A stretch of DNA of 64,000 nt from Bilabrum cf. latius (taxonomy: Eukaryota). Made by a program: the position numbers and the translations under genes. The notes under the pieces are model-generated. The model was not told the DNA's origin. It saw nothing but the letters and a program-made list of their open reading frames with translations, and ran no database searches. This document shows positions 36,001 through 60,356 of this stretch, piece by piece. Numbering within the stretch: position 1 is the first letter of the stretch; the number at the start of each line of letters is the position of its first letter. The stretch lies in the NCBI GenBank assembly GCA_965178125.1, contig OZ237753.1:744001-808000 (forward strand), in the 5' to 3' direction.

Positions 36001-39000
36001 GATTCGTCCTCGTTGGCGCATCGTGCCGGCCAGCTGCTCCACCGAGAGGGCAGCATGCACTCGATGGATGGTGAGGTGCCGGATGGCACTCCGGCACCCG
36101 AGTTGGAGGGCAGTTACGGCCCGGTGCAGCCGTTCCAGGAGCAGCACATGGACGTTTTGATCAGTAGCAGGGGCAGGGACGAGTTCGACGACGACGACGT
36201 CGACCTAGTGCAGGCCTGCGCCATCGAAATCTCGCACGCATTCCGAGACAAAAGCGTGGAGCTGCTTATGTACTCCGATGCGGAGAGGCGGCGGCAAGAC
36301 ACGAGGAACAAGGGGCGGACTGGAGGCAAGCCCTGGTTCAAGAGGCTGCCTTCGCACCGCAGCATCGCCAGCTCCCAGCACGGCTCGACCTCAAACTCTG
36401 GCTCAGTGCAGGACAGCCTGCAGTCACACGGGACGCCCCCCGGGTCGAGGAGCGGGCGGGCATCCCAGCAGCCGCTGAACCGAAAAGGCAGCAACCTCAG
36501 CTCCGTCCGAAGCGGCAGGGCCAGTGCGGCGAGGGGCAGCGCAGATGGGGCTGAGCTGGGAGCTGCTGCTGGGGGCGGCAGGGTGCAGGACAAGGCCAAA
36601 ATGCTTGAATCCGTGCTGGCTTTCTATTCGAGGGATGGAGGCGACTCGGGAGGCGGCACGGTGGATCAGCACAGGCAGCAGAGGAGGTCTCGAGACAGTA
36701 GCGCGGGCGGCCGCAGCCGTCGGCGTGATGAGGACCAGGACCGCGCCCGCTCTTCTCGTGGTGACCGCGATTCGAGCGGCAGGGGTGCAGGCGCAAACGA
36801 CGACACGGTGCGGAAAGGGCGAGGCTCCCCCGGAGGCACCACCACCTCATCGCTCGTGTCACAAAAGGGGCAGGGACAGGCGGGTGGGGACGCAGCAGGC
36901 GCGCCAGACGGCGGCACGGGCTCGCCGTCCGCCTCATCCCCCCGTCCAGCGGAGGGCTCCCGTGCCAGTGAGAAATCATCCTCCCGGCGCAGGCACTCAG
37001 CGAACTTTCATCGGGATTCGGCGGGCGGTATTGCCGGCACCAAGGCGGCGGTGCATGCGCTGGGGCCGAGGCGAGTGAGCGACCAGCAGCTGCTGGCGTC
37101 GGGGGCGGGGAGGGGCCGCGGCGTCGTGCCAACTCCGCTCGTGGGTGCCTCTGGTGTGCCGCCCTCCGGAATGCGCCCAACTGACGCGGCAGCACCGCAT
37201 GGCGCTCACCCGGGTCACGATGCGGTGGACGGCAACGTCGACGGGGAGGAAGCGCCGGGTGGTGCCAGGGTGCTGTCGCCCAGGGATTCGTCTGGCGGGC
37301 TGCCCAGCCACGAGGGCGGCGCCACTTTTGGTCGCAAATCGAGCGGGAGGTCCTTCGGGGACGGGACGCGGTCCGACCGGCTGTCGAGGGGCTCTCAAGA
37401 AGGCACCTCCGTGGGTGGCGGGTCCGTGGCGGAGACGGAGCTCGACTCGGAGTCGATGGGGCGGACGGGCCGCGGGTCGAGGGGCTCGGCGACAGGCAGC
37501 GCGAGCAGAGGCCCCTCTGGAGACAGGGCCGGCAGCGGCACGGCGTCTCCCAGGAAGGCGTCCAGTGTGACAAGCGATGACGTGCAGGCCCTGCGCGCCC
37601 GTATGGTCAGGGACGGCCTGCGCGTGGACCATTACGACATGGACGCGGTGCCTCCTTCCGAGCTGGACCTGCCAGGCACCGACGGGATGGGATGGGTTTG
37701 CGTGCCTGGAGACACGGCTGGCAGTGGCAGCGTGGCGGCAACGGGCACTGCCGCCGGAGCTGTCGGTGCAGCAGCGTGTGCGGTGCACGGTGACGAGGTG
37801 TCTGCTCTGGTCCTCCGCGGCGGGGCCTCCCTTGGATCCCCCGGGCACCCGATCGGCATGGAGCTCCCACCGCACGACGACTGGCGCTTTATGCCCTGGG
37901 ACATCCAGCCCCACCAAGCGGGCGGGATCGTGCTGGACCTGCTGACCACGTCGGCTGGCGTGTCATTCACCGCAAGAGAGGCGTGGCTCCCTGCGCAATC
38001 CGACAGCAAGGCGGCACGGCAGGAGCAGCTGGCCATCCTATCGGGCACAGACGCGAGCGAGTCGTCCGGGGACGAGAGGGCCGGGGGGTCACCATCACCC
38101 GGCGACGCGGCGCCAGAGGCAGCGGCGGCAGCGGGCGGCGCCCTCGTGCCGGCCTTCTTCCTTCACGGCCCCACGGTGCTCGCATTCGTGGAGGCGGTGC
38201 GGCGCAGGTACCGGCGGTGCGTCTTTCACTCGTTCGCGCATGGGCTGCACGTATGCCAAGCCTCAGGTCTGCTGCTGCGGGCCACCAACAGCGCCGAGGT
38301 GCTTAGCCCCATGGAGCGGGCAGCCACTCTCTTGTGTGCCCTGAGCCACGACGTGGACCACCCCGGCATCAACAACGCCTTCTTGCAGTCGATCGAGAGC
38401 CCCGTGGCAATGCGGTACAACGACATCAGCGTGCTTGAGAACCATCACACCGCCACGACGTTCGAGATCATCCGAGCGCCGGGCACGGACTGCCTTGGCG
38501 TGCTTGACCCAGCCGAGTTCCGGCGGTGCAGGGCGCTCATGGTGCGTGCCATCCTCGCGACAGACATGAGCGGGCATTTCGACATGACGAAGGAGCTCAA
38601 GGCGATGACGGGCCCCTTCGAGGCCGGCGGCACGGACAAGTCGAGGAACCGACTGGCAGAGGTCGTGGTGCATTCTGCCGACGTGAGCGGGCAGGTGCTC
38701 GAGTGGGACGTGGCGCAGCTGTGGTCGCGGCGGGTCATCACCGAGTTCCAGCAGCAGGCCGACATGGAGGCCGCCCGGGGGCTGGAGACGGCGCCTTTCA
38801 TGCAGGGCTTGGAGAAGGACTCGAGGCAGATGGGCCTGCAGAAGGGATTCTGCTCGTACGTGCTGACCGCGCTGTGGCAGCCGCTGAGCGACCTATACCC
38901 GTCGCTGGAGCCGCAGATGACGGAGTTGTCGCGCAACGCGGAGATGTACGCTAAGCTAGAGGCGGAAGCGAGGGCGGATGAGGAGGCAAAGGAGGCAATG

Positions 39001-39051
39001 GAAGCGGCGGGAGGTAGCGGCGAAGACGAGCCAGAGGCGGACGGCGAGTGA
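30019..39051 (+). CDS. GAF-domain class I cyclic-nucleotide phosphodiesterase, ~2,920 aa; exons 30019-30297, 30467-30754, 30847-39051
   Basis: Three GAF motif sets (e.g. 'CDRITMFVVD...GFAGHVAQTG...LLAVPV...EAINK...FTSFDE'). Catalytic 'FHSFAHG...HDVDHPGINN...VLENHH...ILATDM...HSADVS...EFQQQ'. Nine TAGs (30094, 30689, 33829, 33835, 34195, 34462, 34948, 35578, 35581); ends TGA. Confidence 0.9.
30298..30466 (+). other. Spliceosomal intron (169 nt) in PDE
   Basis: GTGAGG...GCGCAG; joins two halves of GAF-A that lie in different frames. Confidence 0.7.
30755..30846 (+). other. Spliceosomal intron (92 nt) in PDE
   Basis: GTGAGC...TCGCAG; the join gives the GAF helix FSVFLGE|SMHRLGLYE. Confidence 0.8.
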
Positions 39052-39255
39052 AGAAGCCAGACTGAGACGGTACTACCCGATGAATGCCCACCGCTGCTGG
39101 AATCAGGAACTGACTGACTGATGACAGAGACTGTTTGGATATGCATTGGCTCCTTCTGCCCGTCGGTGGCAGTAATTCGGAGCAACCTACAGGCCTAGGC
39201 CGGGGTAGACCTTGTGGCACAATCGCGTCGTTGTCCCAACCAACTTACGTTGCTC

Positions 39256-40710
39256 ATGCGATCCTCGTTTGCCATACGCGCTGCTCGGTAGGCGCGAGCG
39301 CTTGCATTCTCAAGGTGTCTCCGTAAGGTCCCAGCTACGCTGCCAGTGCCAAGATAGCTGAGCTCGCAAGCAGGACAAGCGCCCCAATTGAGTGAAGAGC
39401 AGCAAGCAAAAGCTGAGAAGCTCAGATCAGATATTCTATCAAAGCTAACGAAACGCGACGAGGAGCTGGATGGAATGTTCAGCGACAGCGCACAGGCTGC
39501 TGCGGGCTCCAGCGGGGAGCCGATCGATCCACACCACAGGTTTCTCGCGACGTACTACTCGCACCGACACACTGAATACGTACTTCCTGCGCTTCGAAGG
39601 TTTTACGCTGATCCTGTGACGGCCCAGTGGCCAGGCAGGCGTGCGATGCTAGTTGCCTTTACGGCCGAGGTTCTGCAGCGCTTCTCTGAGGTTGAGCTCG
39701 GTGATTTTTTCTTCAGGGCCATGTACAGCCATTCGGTGCCTCCGATTTACATGCTAGCGTCGCTTCGCCTTGCGGCGGCGTCGGGAGACACCGTGGCAGG
39801 CCGGAAGCCTGCGCCTGCCCAGGCTGGTGACGCAGGTGGGCCCGATGTCAGCAAAGCGAGCGGCGGGGGCGGGCTCCTGGACCACGCCCAGCGCCTCCAT
39901 AGCATGCTGCAGAAGGCCCCCGGCACGCCCGAGGAGGAAGCGGCCGTAGCGAACGCGAACGCGACGCCAGTCCACAAGCTGCTGGTGCCTCACGTCGACT
40001 CCGATCGGGATCAGTTCGCCAAGGAGGGCCGCGAGGGCGGGGGAGGGCTCGACGTGTTCCCCGTGCTGGCCCAGCTGCGCATGGCCAGCGGGCCCTTCGG
40101 GGCGAGCGCCGCCCCGCCCGCCGGTGCTGTCCGTGCCACCAGCGCGTACTGCCTGCAGGCCGGGCTGTGCGTCGTGGATGCTCACCTCGGGGCCTTCTAC
40201 GCGTCAGGAGATGCAGGCACGTTCATTGGATCGTTGCTTGAGGCTGCCCTTCCCTGGGGTGATGACCTGAGCGAGAGGGGCGTGACCCAGTGCCTGCCGC
40301 TGCTGCAGTCGCATGGCGTGCCTCTCCCCGGGGATGTGACGAGTGCGCTGGAGGGGGAGGACGTCGTGGCGGCAGAAAAGGCCATCCGGTTCGCGCTGGG
40401 AAGGTATGCGGCCCAGGCCCTGCTGTCGGTGGCCTCCCAGCACGAGAGCGCGGCCCGCGTGCTTCTCGGGCGTCTGGAGTCGCTCGCGCCTGCGATGGGT
40501 GGCGATGCGTGGCTTGGGACGGGGGGCGGGTCGCTGGAGGTGGACGAGAGGCGGGCGATGGAGCTGCTACCGGCCCTGGCGATGCTGCTCGCCAGGGGGC
40601 GTGTGTCCGGCCAGCGGCCGACAGAGGAAGTGACCGCGGGCCTTGGAGGGGCCAGGGACCGAGAAATTGGCGCGGCAGCGGCAGAGGCGGCTGCATCTGC
40701 TCGATAGTAA
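39256..40710 (+). CDS. Hypothetical protein, probable mitochondrial presequence, ~484 aa
   Basis: MRSSFAIRAAR*ARALAFSRCLRKVPATLPVPR*LSSQ... runs in frame into ORF 39388-40707; ends CGA TAG TAA. No family recognised. Confidence 0.7.
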
Positions 40711-40855
40711 ATGAACGTAGTTCCTGTGTGTCCATTTTCTGCCTTACAGGTGCTTGCCTGGACTTTCTGGGACATTTCCTCGGATGTTGCATTTCCGGAA
40801 CCAGGAAACCTCCCGAGAATGTCCACACTGGTCCATTCAAGCGTCTCTCTCAAGC

Positions 40856-42625
40856 ATGGATATAAAAGCGATCTTTGAAAATTCGTTCGAGGTATTTAGG
40901 AAAGCAGAGGCATGCGCTGATGCTGGAAGGGACGATGAAGCTTTGGTTCTGTACCAGCGGGCGGCCAGCAGCTTAGTCCTGGTTGCTAGGCACTATGAGA
41001 AGGAAAGGCACACTCGAACGGACGATAGCATTTCACCATACCACTAGATGGCTCTAGAGTATTCAGACCTCTCTATTAAGCGAGCCGAAGCTATCAAGGC
41101 AAGACAGACGGGACCACACGTAGCGGGTGGAGATACTGGAGCAAAGACAAGCTCAGGTCCCCCACAGATCAAATCACCAAGCGGTGTTAGGGCTGCATTA
41201 GAGTCGGAAGCCTCTGTTGTGGTCCGGGCGAAAAGGGTGCTTGCTACGGCCGGCGATCTTCTCGAGAAGGCCGATGCAGCGTCTCGGCGAGGCAACGCAG
41301 CTACAGCCAAGTAGCTGTCCATACAGGCCGCCGAGCTGTGCATGAATTGTATTTAGGGACTCAACGCACATGTCAAGGCTGCTGGGGCGGCAGGCGGCGC
41401 TGCCTCACCTGGTTCGTCTCGAACGGTTCTTGAGGTGCGAGCCTCGATAGAATAGCTGTGCAGCGCGTGCCTTTCTCGAGCCGAGGCCTTATCGAACGCA
41501 ATACCATTCAGTGATCCTAAAACTACCGGAGAATTGCGCGCAAGCTCCAGCAGATAGCCTTCATAGGCCGAGATGCTGGCCTTGCTGCATCCGCCGAATG
41601 CGCTCATGCGAGCGGCGCTGGCGGCACAGGAAGATGCCGCGGCGGTGCGGCAGCGAGTGGCCGCAGGAGATTCTTCCTCCGCTCTATCCATCCACAACAC
41701 GAGCCTATCGGCCCTCGCTGAGACATGCGTCACCGTGCGAGGCGCGGCGGTGCCCCCTGGGGTCGACCCGCTCAGCCTGTACGATGTGTGCGTTGCCCGG
41801 TATCGCGCCTCGCTGGCGGCAAGGGACGCGATGGAAGCGCTTCTGAAAGAGGGAAATGTGGCCAGCAGCGTCTTGAAAGAGGTTGCCTCTAGGATTACGG
41901 GACTGCAATCGAGAGTGGCGTTGCAGCAAGCAGAGGGTGCAGTAAGCAGAGCAAGGCAAGAGATTGATGAGCTCCAGATCACCGCTCGTTGGGTGCACGT
42001 GCCCGTCGCTCCCGGGACTACTGCAGCAGGCGGCACTGCAAAAGCAGCAGACCCGGCTGCATCAGCAGCCACAGACCCTTCAAAGAGAGTCACGGTGGTG
42101 CCGGGGTTCGGTCCTGGTGTTGCGCACCCGAGGGAGGGCGTGGCGGGACAGGTGCCGAGCAAGAACCCAGAGCAGCTGGCATGGGAGGCAAAACAGCGGG
42201 CAGCGCTCGTGGAGGCCGCAGCAGCGGGCCCATCCACTGCGCCAGCCGCCCCTGATCTGCCAGCAGCTGGGCCTGAGAGCTGGCAGCAGCCACCAGCCGG
42301 CGCCACGGGAAAAGGCAGCATTGATGTGTACCCTGGTCCACCCGGCTATGCAGGGTCCGGGCCACCTGTCTATCCCAGCGGTGCTGCACCATCACCGGCT
42401 TCCTGGGGCCCTGGTCAGGTGTACGGGGCGGTGCCGCCGCCAGCAAGCGCTGGAGCCGGGCTGGCCAGTGGCACTGGGGCTGGAAGTTCGGGTGCTGCAG
42501 GGGATATGGCAAGCAAGGCAAAGTCGGTTCGTTCGGGGTCCAAACCGGGCTACACGGGTTCTTCAGGTGCGACTGGGACAGGAGGGGGGAAGGGAGCGGG
42601 TGCTGGCGACTGGACCATCGTGTGA
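40856..42625 (+). CDS. Protein with two MIT-like helical domains and a Pro/Gly-rich tail, ~589 aa
   Basis: 'FRKAEACADAGRDDEALVLYQRAASSL...SIKRAEAIK' and 'LLEKADAASRRGN...AAELC...CLSRAEAL'. Six in-frame TAGs between 41045 and 41566; ends TGA. Confidence 0.65.
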
Positions 42626-42785
42626 GAAAGGTGCGACTTGAATAGACTCATTGCAAGCTCTGTGCTCCCTGGGGCAAAACTAGTTGGATTCGGTGATGCG
42701 ATCCAAACCCGCGGCACCCGCTCGACGACCCCTCCTGCACAGTGAACTGAAGAAATATATCCGGATGTGCTGTGTGAGGTTGAAT

Positions 42786-45700
42786 TCAACTCACACCATC
42801 GTCGTCCACATCTCCCAAATCGAAGCCCGCTTCTTCCACTGTCGGACCGCCCTCACGGTCCTTTCCCCCCGGCCGTCCGCCCGGCTGCCGCCCGCCTCGG
42901 GCGGCTTGTTCGCCGCTCGCCCGCCTCGCCTAGGCGTCCCGCTCTTGCCTCCTCGCCGACACCATGCTGAGCGCCAGCCCGATCCTCGAGTCCATCGACT
43001 TAATCTCCTTGCGGAGGCCCCGGAGCGCCGACTTGAGCCGAACCACCGGCCCCGCATCGGTCGCGCGGCCCGTCCTATCCTCGAGCTCCCCACGGACCCG
43101 CTCCAGCTCCTCCAGCACAGCGACGCGCCGCTCCTGCCCCTCTCCAACCTCCCGCCTCAGCTGCCCCATCGCCTCCTCGGCAGCGCGCGCCCTGCCTCCC
43201 TCCTTGGCGTACCATTCAGGTGCAGTGGACCCGGCCTCACCGGCCGACCCCACGACAGGGAGGGAGTTGATCCTGCGCTCGCCCGCCCGTAGCCTCTCCG
43301 CGGTCCTGTCTGCCTCTGTTGCCACTCGCTGAAGCGCATCAAGGGCCTCGCTAAGAGGACCACCGGAGCCCGCACCCTGTTCTCTGGTCCTCCTCTTCCC
43401 GCCGCTTGCGCTTGCTCTTGCACCGAGACGTGCTCGCAGGTCACGGGCCTAGTCCGCGGCTGGAATCGTGGACAGGCCCTGCTCCATCCCACGCAGGGTC
43501 TTGCGCCAGGCGGACTAGTATCCAACCGCGCCCTAACCGCCCTTTAAACGCTCCCCACCGCTCACTTCCAGCTGCAGCGCACGCAGCAATGGCCAGACCC
43601 TCTCAACCTCAGCCGCCCACTCCAGCCGGTCCACATCGGGAGCACTGGCGAAGGCCGCTTCATCACCGCCGCCGCCTGGAACAGCGTCACTACCGTTGCT
43701 GCCAGCATCGCGCCGAGCACCCCTGCCTAGCACTTCCGCCTCTGCTACCTCCTCGTCGATTTCTGCCTGCCCAACGCCACCCTTGCCAAGTCGCACAGCA
43801 CCGGCACCTATGGACCCCGACTCGGGACCACCTACTCCAACGAAGCGACCGTCCTGGTACCACCCATCCTCGTCGCGATCTGCCCCGGTGTCATCCCCCT
43901 CTTCCACCTCCATGGGTGCGCCCGCGACCGGTTTTCTTGCACCACCCGTGGCTCCGAACCCTGCCGATGCCTCCAGCGACACCTCTCCTACGCCGCCTCC
44001 CCGTAGCCCCACGCCCTGATCCCCGTCCCCACCGGCGCCCAGCGGGACACCCGGCACACCAAGCGTAAACCCGCGAGCGTCCAGCACGCTAGATGCCAGC
44101 CAGTGCAGCATCCACACAAGTCCTTTGCCGAATCCCCGAGACAACTCCGTGGGGTTGCTGGCGGCGGGTGCCGTCGCCCGGTCGGGCGCTCCTGCTCGCT
44201 GCACGGCCAGCAGCATCGCGCGCGCCAGCTGCGCTGGAGGCACGTCATCGATGCTCCCGCCCTGCAGCCCAAGGGCCTCCGCAGCGTCTTCCCCCGACAC
44301 GTCCACATCCCCAGCACCGGCCATCGACTGGTCCACCGCCTGCGCCACGCGACGGAGGCGGAGCATCCAGCCACAGAGCGAGGCCGCCGCTGCCAGCTAA
44401 CGCGGGCCCCCCGCGGAGCCTGGGCGCGGCGGTGCCGCAGCCGCGAAGTGGAACGGCTCCAGTGCCCTGTCAGCCGCTGCATCGGACCCTGCATCCATGC
44501 CCCTCACGCCACCGTACCCCCCGAGCTCCAGCCCCAGGCCGCTGCCGCCCTTGTTCCCAGCCGTTCGTGTGCCCTCCCCCAGCACCTCCCTAGGCGGCAG
44601 GTCCACCGTCCATCGGTCCCGCGCCCCTAGGCACAGCAGCATCTCTCTCAGCTCCTGGGCCACCACCAGCAAGTCTGCCTCGGCCGGGGGCCCCTCCAAT
44701 GACATGAAGGAGCTGACGAACAGGGGTGGCCTGTCACGGGTCACGGCCCGGGGCCCTGGCCCCGTACCCGGCCTCCCAGCAGATGACGGGGCCATGGCCT
44801 GCATCCGGTGAGCGCTGGGGTCCTCGAAGACAGCTCTTGCCGATGGAGCAGCGGCCGGTGCGGCTGCCGGGGCGACTGCCCCTGCGCTGCCAGTTGCCCT
44901 GCGTGCCTCGGCTGCCACGACGGCAGCGGCGCTCCCTCTAGGCCTTGCCACGAGTCCCGAGCCCGCGCCAGGCACGGGCACAGGCATGGGGCCCAGGGGG
45001 ACCGGCGACCCTGCCGATACCGTGCTGCCTGCAGGGGGGGTGCCCGGGTTGCTATCGCCGACACCGATGCCGATGCCAGGGTGTTCGGATGCCGCGCCTG
45101 CCAGTCGGGGCGGGGATGCCGGGGGCTGACTGCCAGTGCGGCGATCTACCGGACGCGCTGAACCAGCACCAGCACCGTCTGTCCGGTGGCCCGCGGGAGA
45201 AACCGCTGCCGAGCCAGCGTCGCGGCTGGCGGCAGCGGATCCTGCTCCGTTCGGAGGAAGGCTAGGTCGGGTTGTCCCTGTTTCTTGTTGCTGTTGTTCT
45301 GCCTGCGCTCCCGACCCGGCGCGACCATCAACACCGCCAGCCTCGTTGCCTCGCCCGCTGCTGCCGCTGCCCCCTCCAGTTGCCGGGGTCGCCACCGGAG
45401 TGCCCTCGACGCGCCCCTTGGCCCCGCTCCCTCCATCACCACCCTTGCCCTCACCCTCGCCCTTGGTCTTCCCCTTCCCTGCAGCCCTCTGTCTCTCGGT
45501 GTACTCCCGCATGTACTCTGCCACCTCGAGCACCTCCTCAGCAGAGGGCCTGTCCGCTGGAGCCTGCGTGAGCATGGCGTCCACCAGCTTGCGCAGGGTG
45601 CTCGAGTACACGTCCGAGATGGGCGGGTATGTTCCCACCTGGATCTTCTTGAAGAGCTGAAAGAGGGAGAGGCCCTGCTCTTTGAAGGGGGAGCGAAGCA

Positions 45701-46716
45701 TCGCCAGCTCGTACAGCACACAGCCGAGGGACCAGACGTCGCTCTTGGCATCGTAGCCGCTTCCTTTGAGGACCTCTGCGCTCATGTACAGGGGCGTACC
45801 CACCTTACTGAACGCCTCGAGCGTGTTGTCGGAAAGGAACCGGCCGAGGCCGAGATCTCCGAGCTTCACGGTTCCGTCCAGAGTGAGGAAAATGTTGGCC
45901 GGCTTGATGTCGCGGTGGAGAACGCGATTTTCATGCATGTACGCGATCGCTCTGCATATCTAACAGAAGAATTTCCACACCACTCGTTCGTCGAATCGTG
46001 CATCGCGCTCGCGGGCCTTCCTTAGCTACCGCTTCAAATCGCCAGCCTCGGCGTACTCGAAAACCAAGTGCAGCTGATCTTCTTCAATAAACGATTCAAT
46101 ATATTCGATTATGTGGGGGTGCCGAAGAGATTGCACAAGGTCGATTTCTTTCAGGCACTTCTCGCTGCGATGACACTCAAAATCGGAAAATGCAAGCAGG
46201 GCAGCTGCAAGAGACGAGCCAAATATGAACGAGGCGGTTCGGGAGTTTAATTGTGGCACTCACCGGCTGCGATCATCCATCATGTCGAATATGCGGATCT
46301 TCTTCATCGCGACGAGCCGACCGTCCGAAAGCCGTTTCGCCCGATACACTACTGAAAACTTGCCTTTACCTGCATTCGCATGGGATTGTGGCCATTAATC
46401 GGGCAAAGTACTGTGCAGTGCGGACACAAATCTCGGTGGGCCCACGAATCGGGGGGCGGGCTATTCGATTCGCGTTCTGAACGAGGATCGCACAGACTCG
46501 ATTGAAAGACAGCGAAACGGTCTAACACTCACCTATTGGCTTCATAACATCGTACTCATTCAGCTTTCCGGTGCTCACGGGTACTCGAACCTTTCCATTC
46601 ATGCTGATTGCAGCCGACGGACGCTCATCGTGCTCGTGTCCTGCGTCTTCACAATGTATATCCGAGCCGTGCGCAACGCCTGCGTCCATTCTAGTAGGAT
46701 CACGAGCTTCTGACAT
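42786..46716 (-). CDS. NIMA-related (NEK6/7-like) kinase fused to a C-terminal IFT57-like region, ~1,222 aa; exons 46716-46533, 46369-46264, 46164-42786
   Basis: Kinase 'IGKGKFSVVY...VAMKK...HRDIKPANIF...KLGDLGLGRF...VGTPLYMSAE'. IFT57-like 'LSRGFGKGLVWMLHWLA', 'EWAAEVERVWPLL', 'TDAGPVVRLKSALRGLRKEIKSMDSRIG'. TAGs at 46026, 45960, 44397, 43533, 43515, 43449, 42930; ends TGA. Confidence 0.88.
46165..46263 (-). other. Spliceosomal intron (99 nt) in NEK gene
   Basis: GTGAGT...TCGCAG; the join gives MMDDRSR|EKCLKEIDL. Confidence 0.88.
46370..46532 (-). other. Spliceosomal intron (163 nt) in NEK gene
   Basis: GTGAGT...ATGCAG; the join restores the Gly-rich loop KPIG|KGKFSVVY. Confidence 0.88.
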
Positions 46717-47500
46717 GTCAACTCATGTTTATATCCGGAGAAACCACGCAATGCATGGCAAATTTGAGCGTTGGAGGATTTCGGCTACCTGTCAAGATTC
46801 ATGAACATTCACTAAAACACTCGTCACACTATTTACTACATTCTGATGATTTCTGCGGTGGGGACGCCCTCACTTTCCAGACAGGTTGAATCAGTCTTGG
46901 CTGCATCAATCTTGTCAGTTAGCTCAGAGAAGGTATCTAGGTACTATATCTGCTGGTTGATTGGCTTTTAAGCGAAGAAAATGCGCAACTTTGGGTAAGA
47001 TATCGATTCGGGGCCTGCGGTAATGTTTGACCCACCTCTCACCATGCACGGTTTGCCCTCAACGCCCGACAAGTTGAGCTTGATGGAACTTTTTGGTGTA
47101 CCAGTATGACATATATAAGTGTATTACAACCATAACTGGGGCATTGATGCTGCTTGCATGCTACATTGGGATGAAGTACCGCATGATACCTCAATCTTAC
47201 TAGGTGATACCCTTGCTTGCCATGTCTCGTAAATTTGAGGTATCATGCAAGGTTTACTTGGCTAATTGGAATTAATATATGTATGAGCACAAGTATATGT
47301 GCCAACATTGCCATTATTGCTGCTGCATGGGGGAAATGACCTGTTGGCTCTCCAGCGGAATACTGTCGACCCGCCTGTTCTCGGTCGCCATGATTGCTTT
47401 AAAGACACGAGTCTATGAGATTCCTGTAGTAAATTTGGAAATAAATGCCAATATTAATTTCAACTGTTGGTATCGCAGGCAAGTATTGGCCCGCAGCACT

Positions 47501-50500
47501 ATGGCACTAGTCGTGGCAGTGCTGGCGGCCTCCAGCTCGGCATCGGCCTGCACCGTCGACTTTACCGAGGTCGTGTACGAGATGAGCCACGACCTTGACG
47601 ACGTCACGCGCGCGATTGGTACTGTGGAAGCAGTGCCCGGGGACTCCACCGCGTTCGAGTCCGTGACTTACGCGATCACCGAGGGACAGAATTTCGGCGC
47701 TGGATTGGATGCGGTCGCCAACGCCTTCACCATCGACCCGGCCTCGGGAGAGATTACCGCCGTGGGCTCGCTGCCTGTTGTCGGCGGACTGTCTCACAAG
47801 ATAACGGTCAGGGCCACGGCCACGTGCGCGGGCGGCGTCACCGCTACCGGCTCCGTGGCCGTGGCGGCAAGGCTGCACCAAGCCGGCCCGTGCAGCATCG
47901 CGCAGGTCGAGGTGGGCGTGGCGGGACCCACGTGCGCAACTTCCAACACTGGGGGTGGCGTATTCTGCTGGGGCAACTGCGGCGCGGACGGCTCCCAGTG
48001 CGGCCTCCGCGACTCCCCGTACCTGAGCTCCAACGGTCGTGTGACAGAGCCGGAGATTTCGGGGGCCTTTGAGGGGCTGACCCCCCGGTCCTTCGAAGCC
48101 GCTGCCAGGAAGGTCACTTCGATCACCAGCGCAACTGGCAGCCGGGTGGCCTCATGCGCTCTGATGGGAGACAAAATCCGGTGCTGGGGCAACGGCGACT
48201 ACCTGCCGTACCCGAGCGGGGACGATGTGCCATCTCCTGCAGATGCACCCAACTACCCATACAACTTAGCGACCTCAAGCGACGACGTGAACGGGCGGTT
48301 CACCGACATTGAGGCAGGCGAGTCGGCGTTCTGTGCCACAAGGAGAGGGGGCTCCAGCATGATCTGCTGGGGAGCCACTGGTGGTAACCAGCTTGGAGCA
48401 GTCATCGATTCCGCTGTGACGCCCTTCTCGCACGGCTACTTGGAAACAGTGCTTGGAACCAGTAGCAGGCTTCAGATAGACGGTCTTGCGCTGGGAGATG
48501 GGTTCGCGTGCGGACAGGACGACTTACGAAACTTCAGAGACAACATATTCTGCATTGGACGCTCCCCTTGGGGATCTGCATCGGGCGGTCGAAGGAGGGT
48601 GGCAAACCTCCTCGGAAGTGCTGCTTCGGCTATCCAGGTACGCGACGTGTCTGCCAGCAAGAACCGCATGTGCGCGGTGCTTTTTGACCGCAGTGTGAGG
48701 TGCCTCACCCAGGTGGGCCAAGGTCTCGAGCTGAGCATCTTCCGCGGGCTGACTGGAGACCCCAATTCCATCGCTGCCGTGGACAGCGGGTTCTGCGTAG
48801 CCACCGCCGGCACTGCGGGCAGCTCAACGGTCCAGTGCGCTGTGAACGCTTCGTCGCGCGCGAGCCCAGGGGACGAAGAGGAGTTCAGCGTGAAGCTGCT
48901 GCCTGGTATTGCACAGTCTGGCCACAGCGCGAGTTACGTATCATTTATCGATAAGATGCAGACCCGTAGGCGCTCGAGCGCGGCAGATCACATATACGGC
49001 TTCATTGAGCCCTTCAGGTCGTTGCTCATCCTGCGGGTACAAGACTTCAATGTGCTGGAGCTGACAACTGACCTGTCAAACCGCCGTCGAGGGCGTGGGT
49101 AGATTCGTGCCTCCGACTTTGGCGATTCTGACGACGCTGCGAACCAGTTCGGCGCAGACACAGTGGTGGAGGACCTCGATGGAGACGGGCTCGATGACAT
49201 AATTGCAGGAGCTCCAGGCCTCGGTAACGGGGGCGTGTATGCTGCCGTTCTTCCGGCAGACATTCTCACGATCTCGACGGCAACATCATACTACAAGTAC
49301 CACACGGAGGCTTCCGTGGTTGCCGCAATGGGAACCGGTACTGGCCAGCGCTTTGGACAAGGAGTCTGCATCATCGAGCACGGGGCCAGCGACTTCTGGG
49401 TCGCTGCAGGCGGTCCAAGTGGCATTGACAGCTCTGGCGCGGCATCAGGCGCAGTCGTGATCTTCAATGTCGATCGCGCGACCCAGACGCCATCGGCCGC
49501 CGTGCGTATCGGAGCCGGCCAGGGCGGTCTATCTGTCAGTGGCCTCAAGGCTGGACACAGATTCGGACGGAGCGTGGCCTCCATGGGTGACATGGACGGG
49601 GATGGGATCCACGACATCGCCGTGGGCGCTCCCGGCCACGGCTCTAACGATGACGCCAGTGCAAACCCTGGTGCGGTCATTCTGCTGACCCTGACTTCAG
49701 CTCGCACAGTGAAGGCATCCCGTGTGCTGCTGCCAGGTGTGACTGCAGGCCTGCCTCAGCTGAGCGCGGGCAGCTTCTTTGGCGCATCCCTTGCTCGTGC
49801 TGGGTGCAGCTCAGTCAACGGTGATGCCCACGAGGACCTGCTGGTTCGCGTGCAGCTGAACCCGAACGGCGGCTTCGTCGCCGTATTTATGCCCCCAAGT
49901 CCCATGACAGACGCACTGCCAGCGCCGGGGTCGCGCTACTTCCAAGGTGCGGAGACAAGTCTCGGCAGAGTTCAAACTGGTCCATCGCAGCTGCTGTGCA
50001 AGCCACGCGGTGTGAATAAAGCTAGGGTGTATGCTGGTTGGTACAAGCGACCAGGTTACTTCATCGACATCGAGGGCGGCTCTGAGAGCCCCTACCAGGA
50101 CATGCAGTCGTACGACCAGCGTGCTGTGCAGCTGACCACCGATGGTACCGTTGAGCGCCTGTCGGGTGCAGGGTGCTAGTTCTGTGGGCTAGTCAACAAC
50201 CCCGGTATGCAGAAATCTGTCAGCTGCTTCGGGTGCGACGGGTACTCGTACACGTACAGCGGCGCCAACGTCACCGGAGGTCTGGGATACGGCTTCGGGG
50301 TATCAACAGTCGGCGGACCGTCGTTGGCCCAGCCTGCGATTGCGTACGGACCAGTGGACCTGAAGGCGAAAGTGTGCAGCTCGGTGCAGGCGCCAGTGTT
50401 CACCAAGTCCGGTCTACCTCGCATTACGGTCGAGGAGGGGTCGTCATCCGGCTGGACGACCATCCACAACAACGTCGTGGCCAGCGGCTCCAACTCGTAC

Positions 50501-53500
50501 AGCATGGATCCAATCTACCCGTTCAAGGGGCCATTCTTCAGGCCTAGGAGTGGCGGGATCTAGATCAGGATGGACCTCATCGACTTTGAGGACCCCGTGC
50601 TCGCAGAGGCCGGGCACGAGCTGCACGCTGCCATCGTGGCATCCAAGAGCGGGCGGGGATCCACTGCCCTGCCTTTCGTCGTCAGGGTGCGCAACAGGAT
50701 TGAACCGCCCACTTGGGTGCGACCCACCCAGAACCAGGTGAACAACGGGTACTCTCGCATCGTGACGACTGCCCCGAGCACGACTGCCGGGGTGTTCCTG
50801 CAGAGTCTTGAGGCCACCGAAGCAGAAGCGGAAATTGAGACGCTGGTCTTCGAAGTTCTGGACAACGCAGCCAACCTCCCCATCTCGATTTCGTCAACTG
50901 GGTCAGCTTCGGCGGATGCGAGCGTGATCGGCGACATTACTGGAATTCCGAGCGGAGTGCACACTGCCCGCATCGCAGCTGTGGGATACGCCGCTGATGG
51001 TAGCGTTGTGGCTCAGAGCACGCAGACCATCACCGTGGGAGTCGACATCAAGTGCCCAGCAGGCACCCAGCGCGTCAGCGGCGTGTGCGAGGCGTGCCCG
51101 GCGGGCACTTTCAGCACGGATGCGTCCAACACGTGCACGGATTGCCCAACCGACACGTTCCAGGCGGCCACCGGACAGCAGTCGTGCACGCAGTGCAGCA
51201 CTGAGCCCGGGGGCCAGTGGATCCGCCACGAGCAGGCTGGAAGTGCAGTGGCCTGTGAGGTGTGCCCCAGCGACGCGCAGATCAACGCCAACCGGGACGG
51301 CTGCGAGTGCCAGTCCGGCTTTGTGGCGGAGGATCCTGCGGCGACACGCGGTGACATTGTGTGCGTGCGCCCAGTTGCCGAGCTGCAAAGCACAGTGGCT
51401 GCTGACGTGACCATCCAGCAGTTCCAGCTGCCTATCGAGGCCGAGTGGTTCGTCAGGATCCCAGGCGCAAACGGGGTGTTCACTGTGGCAGATGCGACGC
51501 AGCTCGGGACGAACATCCCCACTGCTCGCGCCGTGGCTCTTGACAGCACAGCAGCTCTGCTAGACATCGTCCTGGCGCCAGTGTCCACCACGGGTGAGGT
51601 AGACTACTCGAGCGCTTCCGCGGACCTTGTGGTGCAGACTGGGGACTCGTTCGTCGCGCTGAGCAGATGCACGCTCGCCACCATGGAGGTGTGCTCGCTC
51701 AACTTCGAGGGCTCCACCGGCTCTGGCAGTGCCAGTCTCGGCGTGCGCATCGTGGTGGACCTGGGTCTGCAGCAGGACAAGTGCCGCCCCGGCCAAGAGC
51801 AGTCCCCCGCTTGCGAGTCGTCGGAGGCGAGCTTTGATCTGGCCATCGCAGTCGAAGACGTCGTGCAGGCGCCCCACATCAGGGCGGTGGGCGACAAGGT
51901 CGAGGTGGACGAGGGGTCAACCGACATTAACGCTGCGCCCGGAGTCACGGAAGTGCAGAGCCCCTCGACCGGCAACGTCGCTGCAGCACTTTCCGGTGAG
52001 AAGCTCTACAGCGTGGGGCTCGCCGACCTGCCCCACTACTACGTGAACGGAGTGCCTGCTGCGGTGTCCGACGGCATCACTTGGGACATATCTCTGCAGG
52101 TGAACGTTGCGGGCAACAGCTACATCGTGGGAGGCGTTATTGCCTCTTCAGCGGCGTCCGATGAGGGTCTCTCCCTATCCTCTGCGATCGATTACGAGAG
52201 GGCAGTCTCAACTGGAACTGGAAGTCCGTTTGGAGGATTCCAGGTGACTGCGATCCGAGTGCCCATTGCCCAGGCAGGAAATGTACTTTCTGCGCAACAC
52301 GAAGCCGCGCTGACGGTTACTGGACTCGGCGAAACCTTCACTCTTGAGGTGAAGAACGTGTTTGAGGCCCCCACAGAGCTGCTTCCTGCCAACAATGACC
52401 TGACCATGGTGATCGAAGAGAACAGTCCATCTGAGACCCTGGTGTCTGGACAGCACATAGTGGTCGTAGAGATGGACTCTGTGTACGAACTCTAGCTGCA
52501 GTGTGCCATAAACACTCCGTCAGCGGCAGCTGGCCTCTTCAGTCTTCGTCAGAACCGGCTATCGGCTGAGATCACGGAGCAGACGTTCGGCAGCACCCTT
52601 CAGCGACCGGCGGTGCTCGTGGGCATCTTCAGCTCGGGACAGATCAGCCACGAGGACCCGGTGGTTGGTGCTGACGGGACCGTTAACGTGGACATCACGT
52701 GCACGTACCCAATTGGTGGCGGTGCCACCGACCAGATCCAGCTGTCCCGCCGGGTTGTATCGATCTTGGACAAGGACGAGATGCCCAGCTTCCTCGGGTT
52801 CGACGGAACTGGCGCGCTGGAGGCTTCCGTGGAGGAAAATTCCGAAGCGTTCACCGTGGTGGGTCGCATCACCGTGAAAGATGAAGACGATGGCGCCTTC
52901 GGTGATTTGCAGTTTGGGCTGCAGGACACCGTCGTGGACAGCGGCGACGCGGACAGCTTTTCATTGTCTGCGGTGAAGCATGCAGAGGACGATGTCACCG
53001 TCCTTTCGGCAGCTGAGCTGCCCATGCCGAGCGGAAGCGTGCTTGCAAGCGAGGGTCTTGGAGAGACCGTGTCGAACATCGGGGACGTGGATGGCGATGG
53101 TGTAGTCGATCTGGCGGTATGGTCGCTATCCAGGCCAGACGTGGAGTCTCGGTTGGGTGCCGTGCACCTTCTGTTCATGAACAGCGACGGATCCATTCGT
53201 GCCACGCAACTAATCTCATCCACTTCGGGCGGGTCGGGCATCGCGACCAGCACGACGTCTCGCTTTGGGGCCTACCCGGTCGGCTTCTCACAGCCCCAGG
53301 GTGACGAGCCCGGGCTGATGCGTCTTGCAGTGGGGTAGTATGGACTGGATGTGAGCTCGATCTTCATCTTCCGATTGGCATCTGGTGGTACCGTGCAGCA
53401 TCAAGTTACGTTGGTTGATGGCTCTGGTGGGCTGCCTGCAGGCACGCTTGGACAAGGAGATCGCTTTGGAGCTTCGCTGACAAGCCCGGGCGACGTCGAT

Positions 53501-56500
53501 GGCGACGGCCTGAATGACTTGGTGGTTGGAGCTCCATTCGTGAACGCTGGAAGAACACTCGGTGGCGCGCTATTTGTGCTGCTGCTGCGCGCAGACGACA
53601 CGGTCAAGCAAGTGAGGCGCCTATCGCAAGCATCAGGGGAGGGCTTCGATTCCATCTCGCCTGCTGTCGCGTAGATCGGGTTCGCATGCGCCGCAATGCG
53701 GCCAAGAACCGCAGGCAACCCAGTGGATCTTGCGGTGCCAAGCATAGTCCACAATCGCCTCTTCCTTGCACGCCTGGGCGCGGATTCCACCGTATTGGGG
53801 TTGGAGGAAATCAGCAACGGGGTGGGCGGACTGCCCAGCGGAACAGTCTCCCCTGGATCGCAGTTCGGATATGGGGTGTCTGCCGTCGGTGATATCGACC
53901 AGGACGGACAAGACGACCTTCTCATGCCAATTCGGTTAGATGGCACCGGTGGACGCAGCTCTGGCGGATTCATCATCCTGTTTTTGAATCCGGGCAGCAG
54001 CGCTGTGCCCGTCAAGGCCTTTGCCAAGTTCACGTCTGCCGATCCCATCCTGCGCCCGCTCATCGCCCCCGGCTCCATTTTTGGCCCTGGGGCTGCTGCC
54101 GGTGACTTCAACTCGGACGGAACTACCGACCTGATTGTGGGTGCAAGGGGTGCGGCCGATAGGCGCGGCAAGCTGTTCAAGGTGCTGCTCGATGCATCTC
54201 CTGTGGCTCTGGCGGGGACGTCGTACGAGGTCACGGTCAAGGTGGCAGAAGGCGCTGACCTCGACTATGAGACGCAAGACACGTACGCCGTGACTCTGAG
54301 CGGTGCATCGGGCTCAGGAGCGTAGGGTGCATCCGCTGATCTGACCATCACGCTCGTTGACGTGCTTGAGGGCGCGACCTTCCCAGAGACCGCGAACACC
54401 GTGTACTCGGTGGCCGAAAACTCGGCTGCCGGGACACAGCTGACGGGGGCAGTGGCCGTTGGTGTACCGGGCGTACCCGGCGCTGCAGTGACCTACAGCC
54501 TTGGTGCTTAGTCGCCTGTTCGCTTCGCCATCGATGCGTCCACTGGGCAGCTGTCCGTCGCGAACGGCGCCGCTCTGGACTTCGAGTAGGACGGTGCCGC
54601 CCCACTCCCATTGACGATCATCGCCTAGGACCCCAACGGGCCCCCTGCCGAGCTAGAGGTGACCGTGCAGATCACTGACGAGAACGAGGCACCGGTGGTG
54701 TCTCTGTCTGCCACCGAGGCCACCGTGCCCGAAAACTCGGACCAGGTGGCTGGCACCGTGCTGGCTCAGGTGTCTGTGTCGGACGTGGATGCGTCAGACG
54801 CTCAGATCGGATTCAGCGACTTGGCGCTGTCTTGCGACCAAGCCGATCGCCTGCAGCTGCAGCAGTCTACCCAGAGCCAAGCCGAGGCCCAGGTGGTGTA
54901 CGTGACCAGCAACCCTGAGGACTTCGAGGCGCTGTCAACCGTTGAGTGCACCGTGACAGGGACAGATTCGGCTGGCCTGCAGTCCACCGCGCCGTTCACG
55001 CTGCGCATCAGCGACGAGAACGATGCCCCGCAGACCGGATCTAGCTACTCGTTCACGCTGGAAGAGAACCAACCTGCTGGGACCATTCCGGAAGCCGTCA
55101 ACACGGCCGTGACGGCCACCGACCAAGACGCTGGCGACGTGCTGACTTTCAATCTCGCGGCTGGCGCACCCTTCATAATGGACTCGACCACCGGACAGCT
55201 GACGTACGTCGGAGACGGCGAGGATTACGAAGCGTTGCTTGCTGCGGGCGGCAATTACGAGATCGATTTCACTGTCACCGACAGTGCCGGGGCCACGGCC
55301 ACCGGCGAGGTCCGGATCGACATCATCGACGTCAACGAGGCTCCGGTGCTGCTGGGCGCCGGAGGTGCCCCTCGGACCATCGCCAAGGACGCCGAGTTGG
55401 GAGCTGCCGTGTCTGGAGACTCGCTGTCATCGCAGGATGAGGACCTGCTCGACGATCCCGCCCTGGCCAACTTCGAGGTGTCCGGGTGCACGGGCAGCGC
55501 GTGCGGCGCGTTCGGCTTCTCGCCTTCCAGCGATGGCACGATCCGCCTCGTGGATCCTTCGGTGCTCGACTTAAGCGACGGCGCGGCCGAGGCGGTGCTA
55601 ACCATCCGCGTGCGCGACCGGCAGGATGCTTCTCAGGCACTCTACTCGGAGACGGGCGAGGTCACCATTGTGGTGGAGTGCCCTGAGGACGCGTGTCCCG
55701 AGGGAACCGTCGGGTTCGGGGGCTGCTCAAGGACTCAGACCCAGGTTTGCGTGCCCCTGTCTCAGCCCGAGCCACCTACCCCCGGTGATGATCCCGTCAC
55801 TGAGGTGGGCCGAGGGGACGCGGATGCGGGGACCACTGGGGTCTCCATCGATGTCGTGCCGCAGAATCCCTTGCAGCTGCCCGGCAGCGAGTACGAAGCG
55901 AGCAGAGACGAGCAATGCAAGGCTGTCGTCCGTCTGCAGTGGGGTGCTGCTGCAAACGCGGTTGAGGCGCTCTTGGAGCCTGTGCGCTTCTTCCGCATCA
56001 CGACCGCAGACGGAAGCTCCGCGGTCGTGGGCCTCGCTCGCGAGCAGAGCGTCGACGTGCAGTTCCCGGCCGTGTCTGACGGTAATGAGGGCAGCGTGTC
56101 CGTGGAGCGCGTGAGCACCGCAGCAGCGTGCATTGACAGCGTGTCCGGAACCATCTCCTCCGATGCAGGATGCTTCACCCCTGAGACTGACTCGAGCGGA
56201 TCGGCCGTGTCTGTCACCGTGGGCACCAGGTGCTTCTGCGCGAGCTGTGAGGCGGGCAGCTTCCAGAACCCCGTGTGCGAGGCCGACACCGTCGCCGCCT
56301 TCCAGCTGTCCAACCCCAGCGACTGGTGCTCGTCCTGCCGCAGCTGCAGCGGGCAGGAGTACGAGACCAGGTCATGCCTCGCGTCCAACCCCCAGGACGT
56401 CGGGTACGACACCGCGGGAGCTGCGTTCCTGGACCGAGAGTGCGCTGCGTGCACGCAGTGCGAGTACGACGAGTTCGAGATGTCGTCGTGCGGCGGTGAC

Positions 56501-59815: not shown

Positions 59816-60356
59816 TCGCAATAGAGGCGGGGGGGGGGGCTTGTGCACGGTGCCCTTCACCAGGGGCCCAGCACTGCCTGTCACCCTGCGGTGGTATCCA
59901 CACCGATATGGTGTGGAGCATCCGCGGGCGTGGCGGGCGCTTGGCTGGGCTTGTGGGCTGGGCACGTGGGAGCTCTGCGGGTGGAACTCTTCGGGAAGCC
60001 ATCACAGCTTGTGGTAGCTGCCCAGGGCCGCTTGTCGTGTTAGATGACTCGGATGGTGCTGCGGTTCTCTCAGCGGGGCTTCCTTCGTTTTGAGGGGGGT
60101 CGCAATGAAGAAGACCCGCTGCACCTTGCTGTGGCTCATACGATGTGCAAGGGGCTGTGCGTTGGAGACGCTCTAGCCCTTGCATACAGTGCTGAATTGC
60201 CAAACATAGTGTATTCGCTTTCCAATGTATGTATTTGATCCAGTATTGCCCTGTCGGCGGTGCACCCCGATTCTGAGATAAGATGACCAAGTAACGTGTA
60301 CCTCCGCTGGCCAAAATGCAAGGTAGTATATCTAGCGTACTATTGCGCCCCACACC

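What the first reader, a model, noticed from the sequence alone, without database searches (positions are those of the whole stretch)
44397..46028. Diagnostic sites identify the UAG amino acid as glutamine
Seen: 45960 'ERVVWKFFC*ICRAIAYMH..RVLHRDIKPAN' and 44397 'HFAAA...PR*LAAAASLCGWML'. Known: NEK6/7 read 'ERTVWKYFVQLC' and IFT57 reads 'HYFALP..PGEQFYMFCTLAAWL', with conserved Q at both TAG positions. Supporting sites: GAF 'GIAG*AV' (34948; PDE GAFs have GIAG(H/Q)V), cadherin 'LDFE*' and 'IIA*D', myosin coiled coil 'EELH*EKRARQQ', and frequent adjacency to Gln codons (G*QKQ, R*Q, Y*Q, KQ*, AQ*). One site (CBS 'DGR*EGMFT', 19672) is neutral or would also suit Leu.
Basis: partly seen in the sequence, partly recalled or inferred. 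Interest (0 to 1): 0.85.

Follow-up and report, generated by a model that had tools for sequence, protein, structure and literature searches.

The report
UAG read as glutamine here
In this GC-rich protist genome the usual stop codon TAG sits inside many expressed genes and lines up with conserved glutamines, so it most likely encodes glutamine, a rare but already known type of genetic-code change.

Summary

**TAG is a sense codon.**
- Reading TAG as sense raises the longest open frames from 1469 aa to 4179, 2899, 2751 and 2454 aa. Reading TAA as sense gives no such gain.
- Ten long frames hold 76 in-frame TAG in 17,792 codons.
- Spliced contigs from two other studies carry the NEK-IFT57 gene without a single difference from the window, all seven TAGs included.

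**The residue is glutamine.**
- TAG 45960 falls in a NEK6/7 column that is Q in 119 of 119 homologues.
- TAG 44397 falls in an IFT57 column that is Q in 21 of 23.
- TAG 46026 and TAG 42930 face Q in the closest relatives.
- A simple likelihood over six alignable columns gives Q 0.995 or more.

The GAF, cadherin, CBS and Slu7 sites fall in variable columns. Adjacency to Gln codons equals background.

**Not testable here.** There is no tRNA in the window and no whole genome is held.

UAG-only to Gln is known in Iotanema and some ciliates. My searches found no stramenopile case.

The parts
45960..45962 (-). In-frame TAG inside the NEK6/7-like kinase domain (motif ..VWKFFC[TAG]ICRAIAYMH..)
   Evidence: It faces Q of human NEK7. 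The column is Q in 119 of 119 aligned homologues, with 1 gap. It is kept in the spliced X5 contig.
46026..46028 (-). Second in-frame TAG in the kinase domain (GDLKR[TAG]LRKA)
   Evidence: The column reads M 60, Q 41, L 14, V 3, H 1. The five closest hits shown (P0002, P0003, P0004, P0007, P0015) all read GDLKRQ.
44397..44399 (-). In-frame TAG in the N-terminal part of the IFT57 portion (..GPR[TAG]LAAAASLCGWML)
   Evidence: The column reads Q 21, A 1, E 1, with 4 gaps, among 27 IFT57 sequences.
42930..42932 (-). In-frame TAG near the IFT57 C-terminus (RRQERDA[TAG]ARRAS)
   Evidence: P0123 (51% identity) reads Q opposite it. P0121 (97% identity) ends exactly before it. The column is variable among distant IFT57s.
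43449..43535 (-). Three further in-frame TAGs of the IFT57 portion (43533, 43515, 43449) in a lineage-specific insert
   Evidence: The columns are empty in the 27-sequence alignment. P0122 (47% identity) reads S opposite 43449 in a poorly conserved stretch.
42760..46755 (-). NEK6/7-IFT57 fusion gene. Exons are 46755-46531, 46367-46264 and 46164-42760. Introns are 46530-46368 and 46263-46165 (GT..AG). The CDS runs from about 46716 to the TGA stop at 42788-42786 and gives 1222 aa with 7 TAG.
   Evidence: X5 record 13 (3734 nt) covers it with 0 differences and both joints. X7 shows the same joints. The ORF was rebuilt from those coordinates. Pfam finds Pkinase (1.2e-53) and IFT57 (7.4e-18).
30796..39048 (+). 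GAF plus PDEase_I frame with 7 in-frame TAG, ending in TGA
   Evidence: Pfam. TAG positions. X5 record 10 covers 31819-39145 with 0 differences.
11324..18685 (-). Listerin-like frame (UBC_like plus RING) with 13 in-frame TAG. The last TAG (11333) lies 3 codons before the closing TAA.
   Evidence: Pfam. PDB listerin E 1.2e-33; the human and yeast chains end 3 and 5 residues after the aligned CR(S)E. Codons at the gene end.
47276..59812 (+). FG-GAP plus cadherin giant frame with 12 in-frame TAG, ending in TGA
2..8698 (-). FG-GAP repeat frame with 13 in-frame TAG. These are four distinct sites repeated in near-identical modules, plus one near the upstream edge. The frame runs off the window.
60282..62498 (+). 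Slu7 frame with 6 TAG. Two of them lie before the likely start Met. It ends in TGA.
18793..21387 (-). CBS-domain frame with 4 TAG, ending in TGA
23773..28518 (-). Myosin frame with 3 TAG, all in the tail and none in the motor domain, ending in TGA
39118..42622 (+). Two frames without a Pfam family (39118-40707 and 40715-42622) with 4 and 7 TAG. Eight of the 11 lie inside RNA-like contigs.

Best explanation
The window is nuclear DNA of a GC-rich, intron-poor flagellated protist, probably a stramenopile. Its nuclear code has UAG reassigned from stop to glutamine. UGA is the usual stop and UAA a rare one.

Shown:
- TAG is in frame inside many genes.
- It is kept in spliced transcripts.
- It faces Gln at every conserved or closely comparable column.

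Inferred: decoding uses a tRNA-Gln with anticodon CUA, most simply one base change from tRNA-Gln(CUG), together with an eRF1 that no longer ends translation efficiently at UAG.
For: (1) ORF lengths. TAG as sense gives frames of 4179, 2899, 2751 and 2454 aa, against a maximum of 1469 aa under the standard code. TAA as sense gives no gain.

(2) Codon counts. There are 76 in-frame TAG in 17,792 codons of 10 long frames, beside 548 CAG and 129 CAA.

(3) One-frame homology across TAGs and domains downstream of TAGs.

(4) Transcripts. Of the 28 ORF TAGs in 30700-50600, 22 lie inside gene-sized X5 contigs with 0 differences. Three GT..AG introns are removed in X5 and X7, which belong to two studies. 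The X1 contig holds the whole stretch unspliced. The spliced form gives one 1222-aa ORF ending in TGA.

(5) Residue identity:
- NEK column at 45960: Q in 119 of 119.
- IFT57 column at 44397: Q in 21 of 23.
- Site 46026: Q in the 5 closest hits shown.
- Site 42930: Q in P0123.
- Likelihood over 6 alignable columns: posterior for Q is 0.995 to 1.0, and the next best residue, K, is 0.003 or less.

(6) UAA is not sense. Adding TAA as sense lengthens the longest frames by only about 60 to 160 codons. If TAA were used like CAA relative to CAG, about 18 in-frame TAA would be expected for 76 TAG (my arithmetic). The frames were defined as TAA-free, so this part is indirect.

(7) No readthrough context. 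The base after TAG is G 35, C 16, T 14, A 10. By my arithmetic from the residue frequencies in the same call, this is close to the share of G-initial codons.
Against: - Only two TAG columns are strongly conserved across homologues. Two more rest on one to five close relatives.
- The homologues are not independent, and the likelihood is unweighted.
- The CBS site 19672 faces P, I, V in three PDB alignments, and site 43449 faces S in P0122. Both lie in poorly conserved contexts.
- No tRNA gene is in the window and no genome is held, so the decoder is unseen.
- There are no protein-level data.
- The kind of runs X5 to X7 is not on record. The tool guesses 'RNA?' and for X5 'probably DNA'. My reading that they are RNA rests on gene-sized contigs and removed introns.
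- Both TAA-ended frames have a TAG 0 or 3 codons before the TAA, so UAG may still end translation at some gene ends.
Confidence: 0.88

Rival explanations
1. UAG has two meanings. It is glutamine inside genes but still a terminator close to the mRNA 3' end, as in position-dependent codes. The short tails after some terminal TAGs would then not be translated.
For: Both of the 2 TAA-ended frames, out of 9 frame ends seen, carry a TAG 0 codons (TAG TAA) or 3 codons (TAG CAA GGA CGT TAA) before the TAA. At 0.43% TAG per codon this is unlikely by chance; this is my estimate from two cases. In listerin the TAG sits where human and yeast listerin end, 3 to 5 residues after the RING. The 3' UTR implied by the X5 contig is only 26 nt for NEK-IFT57.
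Against: Seven of 9 frames end in TGA with no nearby TAG. The same pattern is expected if these TAGs are relics of former stops, now read through to a backup TAA. Contigs cannot show where translation ends.
Confidence: 0.15
2. UAG is a sense codon but stands for another amino acid, such as Leu, Glu, Lys, Tyr or Ser, as in other UAG reassignments.
For: Variable columns face K, N, R, A, V (Slu7), P, I, V (CBS) and S (P0122). UAG to Leu, Ser and Glu codes exist in other protists (passages of PMC11687900).
Against: The two near-invariant columns are Q in 119 of 119 and 21 of 23. The closest relatives read Q at two further sites. The best alternative, K, has a posterior of 0.003 or less.
Confidence: 0.04
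3. UAG is read as Gln by near-cognate wobble of the ordinary tRNA-Gln(CUG) plus a weakened eRF1, without a dedicated tRNA-Gln(CUA).
For: [quoted passage not shown]
Against: At 76 sense TAGs in 17.8 thousand codons, several of them in one essential domain, efficient decoding would be needed. From recall, known reassignments of this kind usually have a cognate tRNA. This cannot be tested here.
Confidence: 0.08
4. The TAGs are not translated at all. They would be pseudogenes, unrecognised introns, RNA editing sites or assembly errors.
For: None found.
Against: Ten separate frames are affected. The contigs of four runs from three studies show no differing letter at any laid place. The spliced contigs keep all 7 TAGs of NEK-IFT57, while the real introns are removed with GT..AG ends. 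A 97%-identical fragment from another source ends exactly at TAG 42930.
Confidence: 0.01

Closest known systems
UAG-only to Gln nuclear codes: the fornicate Iotanema spirale, the ciliate Protocruzia tuzeti, and two phyllopharyngean ciliate lineages (passages of PMC11687900). From recall, this is the pattern of NCBI table 15.
   Same: UAG is sense and faces Gln. UAA is not seen as sense. UGA is a stop.
   Different: The host lineage differs: this is a GC-rich (about 62%) protist with long, intron-poor genes whose NEK groups with stramenopiles. Those passages list no stramenopile. The tRNA and eRF1 are unseen here.
UAR to Gln codes of many ciliates, Ulvophyceae, Hexamita, Streblomastix and Amoeboaphelidium (passages of PMC11687900)
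   Same: A stop codon is captured by glutamine.
   Different: In those codes UAA is reassigned too. Here, reading TAA as sense adds nothing beyond short extensions of the frames, and two frames end in TAA.
UAG to Leu (an uncultured rhizarian and some ciliates), UAG to Ser (Scotinosphaera), UAG to Glu (a ciliate) (passages of PMC11687900)
   Same: UAG alone is reassigned while UAA keeps another meaning.
   Different: The residue differs. The conserved columns here are Q, not L, S or E.
NEK kinases with a C-terminal IFT57 domain in Stentor and other ciliates (passage of bioRxiv 10.1101/168187)
   Same: The order is the same: a NEK kinase followed by IFT57 in one protein.
   Different: Here it occurs in a non-ciliate. 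A linker of about 300 low-complexity residues separates the two parts. Unnamed sequences P0128 and P0049 show the same fusion.

Membership tests
UAG-only to Gln nuclear genetic code | In-frame UAG inside conserved coding regions of many unrelated genes | tested here: met
   76 TAG in 10 long frames. Homology is continuous across TAGs.
UAG-only to Gln nuclear genetic code | UAG is present in the mature transcript, neither spliced out nor edited | tested here: met
   Of the 28 ORF TAGs in the laid stretch, 22 lie inside X5 contigs with 0 differences, and three introns are removed. The run kind is inferred, not on record.
UAG-only to Gln nuclear genetic code | UAG positions correspond to Gln at conserved columns of homologues | tested here: met
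   Q in 119 of 119 (NEK) and 21 of 23 (IFT57). Q in the closest relatives at two more sites. Posterior for Q is 0.995 or more.
UAG-only to Gln nuclear genetic code | UAA is not a sense codon | tested here: inconclusive
   TAA as sense gives no gain alone. On top of TAG it lengthens the longest frames by only about 60 to 160 codons, and 2 of 9 frames end in TAA. The frames were delimited by TAA, and the window is only 64 kb.
UAG-only to Gln nuclear genetic code | A cognate tRNA-Gln with anticodon CUA | not testable with these tools
   No tRNA in the window, no Rfam match, no genome held.
UAG-only to Gln nuclear genetic code | An eRF1 with altered stop-codon recognition | not testable with these tools
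   eRF1 is not in the window and no genome is held.
UAG-only to Gln nuclear genetic code | Gln at UAG positions in the proteins themselves | not testable with these tools
   No proteomic data are available.
UAR to Gln code (ciliate or ulvophyte type) | Both UAA and UAG are in frame in coding regions | tested here: not met
   No domain-bearing frame needs TAA to be read through.
Ambiguous stop/sense code (Condylostoma or karyorelict type) | The same codon is sense internally and a stop at the mRNA end | tested here: inconclusive
   Two frames have a TAG 0 or 3 codons before the closing TAA. Contigs cannot show where translation ends.
NEK6/7 kinase subfamily | Full kinase domain whose best matches are NEK6/7 | tested here: met
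   NEK7 E 3e-71. Pkinase 1.2e-53. The spliced ORF restores the N-lobe with GKGKFS..VAMKK.
IFT57 | IFT57 domain, and the N-terminal motif (..F..P....QF..F..L..WL) seen in the 27-sequence alignment | tested here: met
   Pfam IFT57 7.4e-18, above the 40-bit cut-off. Chlamydomonas IFT57 chains E 3e-4. The N-terminal motif aligns.

The most novel reading that the evidence does not exclude
This is an independent, so far undescribed origin of the UAG to Gln code in a stramenopile lineage near the bicosoecids, shared with environmental relatives whose predicted proteins also break at in-frame stops. It may have been caught at a stage where former TAG stops are still visible just before backup TAA stops, or where UAG still ends translation at some gene ends.
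Probability: 0.45. Interest if true: 0.72.

Novelty: new member of a known kind. Interest (0 to 1): 0.6.

Why it matters
**Annotation.** Any annotation of this genome under the standard code will break most long genes at TAG. The protein databases already hold such fragments: P0013 starts at the first Met after TAG 45960, and P0121 ends exactly at TAG 42930. Knowing that TAG is Gln allows correct gene models.

**Code evolution.** Splits between UAG and UAA are rare: the passages of PMC11687900 seen name only a few such lineages. A case outside ciliates and metamonads would add an independent data point on how UAG alone escapes eRF1. Here that would happen in a GC-rich genome where UGA is the main stop.

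**Former stops.** The two TAG-then-TAA gene ends suggest a way to study what happens to former UAG stops after a reassignment.

Tried and rejected
- **Whole genome:** not held, so no search for tRNA-Gln(CUA) or eRF1 was possible.
- **tRNA and RNA families:** ARAGORN found no tRNA in the window. Rfam found no family at gathering score.
- **Metagenome scan with the NEK-IFT57 protein:** it returned 7 loci at 24 to 41% identity, all other kinases. None held the close relatives P0013 or P0121 to P0123.
- **Search for fused IFT57 forms of 636 to 2025 aa:** nothing at E 0.001 or better. Low-complexity words probably filled the candidate list, so this says nothing about how widespread the fusion is.
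- **Cluster look-up of 8 relatives:** no organism names.
- **ESM Atlas on the myosin motor:** only generic myosin clusters, of no use for placing the organism.
- **Slu7 search:** 95 hits, but the TAG columns are variable or empty.
- **Sites checked and set aside as non-diagnostic:** GAF, CBS and cadherin.
- **Gln adjacency:** rejected as evidence.
- **Sequencing runs:** no listed holder is on record as RNA. In one search the cadherin gene beyond about 47300 has almost no cover in X5 to X7.
The alignment was then made from the stored window file.
- **Literature:** no report of a nuclear UAG reassignment in a stramenopile. The library lacks most subscription journals, and I saw no supplements.
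- **The NEK tree** is a quick, single-gene tree with long branches. It gives only a tentative placement.
Full report
**1. The observation**

The other quoted sites also exist: GAF 34948, CBS 19672, cadherin 54587 and 54626, and myosin tail 24088.

**2. TAG is a sense codon**

- *ORF lengths.* Under the standard code the longest stop-to-stop frames are 1469, 1337 and 1155 aa. With TAG read as sense they become 4179, 2899, 2751, 2454 and 1582 aa. TAA as sense changes none of the 15 longest, and TGA as sense reaches only 1546 aa.
- *Gene content.* The ten long frames carry Pfam families typical of a flagellated eukaryote: FG-GAP repeats, a listerin-like UBC_like plus RING, CBS, a myosin motor, GAF plus PDEase_I, Pkinase plus IFT57, FG-GAP plus cadherin, and Slu7.
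- *Codon counts.* Together they hold 76 in-frame TAG in 17,792 codons, beside 548 CAG and 129 CAA. A few of the 76 lie before the likely start codon or outside the transcript contigs (39196, 40705, 40718, and the first two in the Slu7 frame), so the number of coding TAGs is somewhat lower.
- *Homology across TAGs.* The NEK7 alignment (E 3e-71) runs through both kinase TAGs. The PDE catalytic domain follows 7 TAGs, the listerin RING follows 12, and the conserved Slu7 C-terminus follows all of that frame's TAGs.

**3. The TAGs are in transcripts**

Seven public runs hold the stretch. None is on record as RNA. I laid four of them on 30700-50600.

- X1 has one contig covering the whole stretch, unspliced and identical.
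- X5 has gene-sized contigs: 30700-31759, 31819-39145, 39233-40630, 40835-42763 and 42760-46755.
- X5 and X7, which belong to two different studies, both skip 30753-30844, 46165-46263 and 46368-46530. All three skips have GT..AG ends on the coding strand.

I therefore read X5 and X7 as RNA, although the tool only guesses ('RNA?', and for X5 'probably DNA'). No differing letter was listed for any run.

Of the 28 ORF TAGs in the laid stretch, 22 lie inside X5 contigs: 7 in the PDE gene, 2 and 6 in the two unnamed genes, and 7 in NEK-IFT57. Three lie outside the contig ends, and three are in the cadherin gene, which has almost no cover.

Joining the three NEK-IFT57 exons gives a 3734-nt mRNA. It has a 39-nt leader, one 1222-aa ORF with 7 TAG, a TGA stop and 26 nt of trailer. 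Pseudogenes, hidden introns, editing and assembly errors are thus excluded as explanations.

**4. Which amino acid**

I used X at every TAG so that the queries were neutral.

| TAG site | Context | Residues in the aligned column |
|---|---|---|
| 45960 | NEK kinase | Q 119 of 119, 1 gap |
| 46026 | NEK kinase | M 60, Q 41, L 14, V 3, H 1; the five closest hits shown (60-66% identity) read GDLKRQ |
| 44397 | IFT57 N-terminal part | Q 21, A 1, E 1, 4 gaps |
| 42930 | IFT57 C-terminus | variable in distant IFT57s; Q in P0123 (51% identity) |
| 43449 | IFT57 insert | S in P0122 (47% identity), in a divergent stretch |
| 60435 | Slu7 | K 16, N 11, R 5 and others |
| 61344 | Slu7 | K 31, A 16, V 13 and others |
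| 34948 | GAF | E, I, Y, H, Q in PDB alignments |
| 19672 | CBS | P, I, V |
| 54587, 54626 | cadherin | A, E, K and E, T, S, K, R |

- *NEK.* 120 of 1389 homologues were listed, and all 120 were aligned.
- *IFT57.* The exhaustive search gave 50 hits. I aligned the 26 of at least 330 aa plus the C-terminal part of P0049. The two non-Q rows, P0135 and P0160, lack an alignable N-terminal motif.
- *Site 42930.* The local context in P0123 is conserved: RDFQARQ against RDA[TAG]ARR. The 97%-identical fragment P0121 ends exactly before this TAG, as a standard-code gene call would.
- *Likelihood.* A simple unweighted likelihood over the six columns with enough residues gives a posterior for Q of 0.995 (heavy pseudocount) to 1.0. 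K is next at 0.003 or less.
It counts 6 of 152 neighbours (3.9%) against a 3.8% Gln background, and three of the six are one repeated site.
- *Bottom line.* The conclusion rests on two near-invariant columns plus two sites supported by close relatives. None of the conserved columns speaks against it.

**5. The other stop codons**

Of nine frame ends seen, seven are TGA and two are TAA. Reading TAA as sense on top of TAG lengthens the longest frames by only about 60 to 160 codons.

Both TAA ends are preceded by a TAG: 'TAG TAA' at 40705 and 'TAG CAA GGA CGT TAA' at 11333. In listerin this TAG sits where the human and yeast proteins end, 3 and 5 residues after the aligned RING end.

I read these as former TAG stops now followed by a backup stop. 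Dual use of UAG at gene ends cannot be excluded.

The base after TAG is G 35, C 16, T 14, A 10, which shows no special readthrough context.

**6. Mechanism**

- *Shown:* UAG is in frame, transcribed, and equivalent to Gln at conserved columns.
- *Inferred from established knowledge of such codes:* a tRNA-Gln(CUA) and an eRF1 with weakened UAG recognition.

Neither can be examined here. The window has no tRNA and no Rfam match, and no genome is held.

**7. What organism**

The best named NEK hits are stramenopiles: Phytophthora, Tribonema, Heterosigma, Ectocarpus and Cafeteria, at 60-66% identity.

A quick single-gene tree puts the query next to Cafeteria (SH-aLRT 87). The two sit within a 5-row set (97) inside a clade holding the other stramenopiles. 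This is tentative.

Unnamed fragments at 47 to 97% identity exist in JGI, ENA and Logan data. Two of them, at 47-51% identity, begin without Met, and one begins just after an in-frame stop close to the window's TAGs. Environmental relatives therefore probably share the code.

**8. Comparison with what is known**

Passages of PMC11687900 list UAG-only to Gln in Iotanema spirale, Protocruzia tuzeti and two phyllopharyngean lineages. They list UAR to Gln in several groups, and UAG to Leu, Ser or Glu elsewhere. No stramenopile appears.

Six full-text searches found no report of a nuclear UAG reassignment in a stramenopile. For the hits of those searches I saw only the listings. The library lacks most subscription journals, and I saw no supplements.

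I therefore class this as a new member of a known kind. It would be a moderately important addition if the lineage is confirmed and unpublished.

**9. Verdict**

Confidence that UAG is translated as Gln is 0.88. Interest is 0.6.

Noticed in passing
window 42760-46755 (-): NEK6/7 kinase and IFT57 are one gene. A single spliced contig gives a 1222-aa ORF in which about 300 low-complexity residues join the two parts. The same architecture appears in the unnamed proteins P0128 (764 aa) and P0049. It is reported for Stentor and other ciliates (10.1101/168187, passage). In the NEK tree P0049 groups with a Prorocentrum sequence, so the fusion may be widespread in SAR protists.
   Followed up: partly
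window 11321-11335 (-) and 40705-40710 (+): The only two TAA-ended frames have a TAG 3 and 0 codons before the TAA. In listerin the TAG lies where its homologues end. These are either relics of former TAG stops or residual stop function of UAG.
   Followed up: partly
window 2-8698 (-): A giant FG-GAP repeat protein is built from near-identical modules of about 450 aa, of two types. Companion + strand frames recur at offsets of about 2712 nt. Each in-frame TAG site is repeated 2 to 4 times. The frame runs off the window.
   Followed up: no
window 47276-59812 (+): A 4179-aa predicted surface protein combines FG-GAP, cadherin and ephrin-receptor-like domains. It also has about seven repeats with the motif RETRRSN(I/V)RF and a C-terminal hydrophobic stretch. 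It has almost no cover in the RNA-like runs.
   Followed up: no
window 23773-28518 (-): The myosin has no TAG in its 826-residue motor domain; all three TAGs are in the tail. More generally, few TAGs fall in conserved domains, as would be expected for a codon that re-entered genes mainly at tolerant sites.
   Followed up: no
window 42623-42788: The convergent genes unk2 (+) and NEK-IFT57 (-) have stops only 160 nt apart. The X5 contigs of the two genes meet at 42760-42763, and the X6 and X7 contigs of unk2 end 9-10 nt after its TGA. The 3' UTRs are therefore very short or overlapping.
   Followed up: no
window 39118-40707 (+): This frame has no Pfam family. Its first Met inside the transcript contig is followed by an Arg-rich stretch that looks like a mitochondrial presequence (my reading of the translation). 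The X5 contig ends at 40630, before the frame's end.
   Followed up: no
P0004 (labelled Symbiodinium sp. KB8) and P0015 (Cafeteria roenbergensis): The two NEK sequences are almost identical in the tree, with end branches of 0 and 0.045. The Symbiodinium-labelled record may be a Cafeteria contaminant.
   Followed up: no
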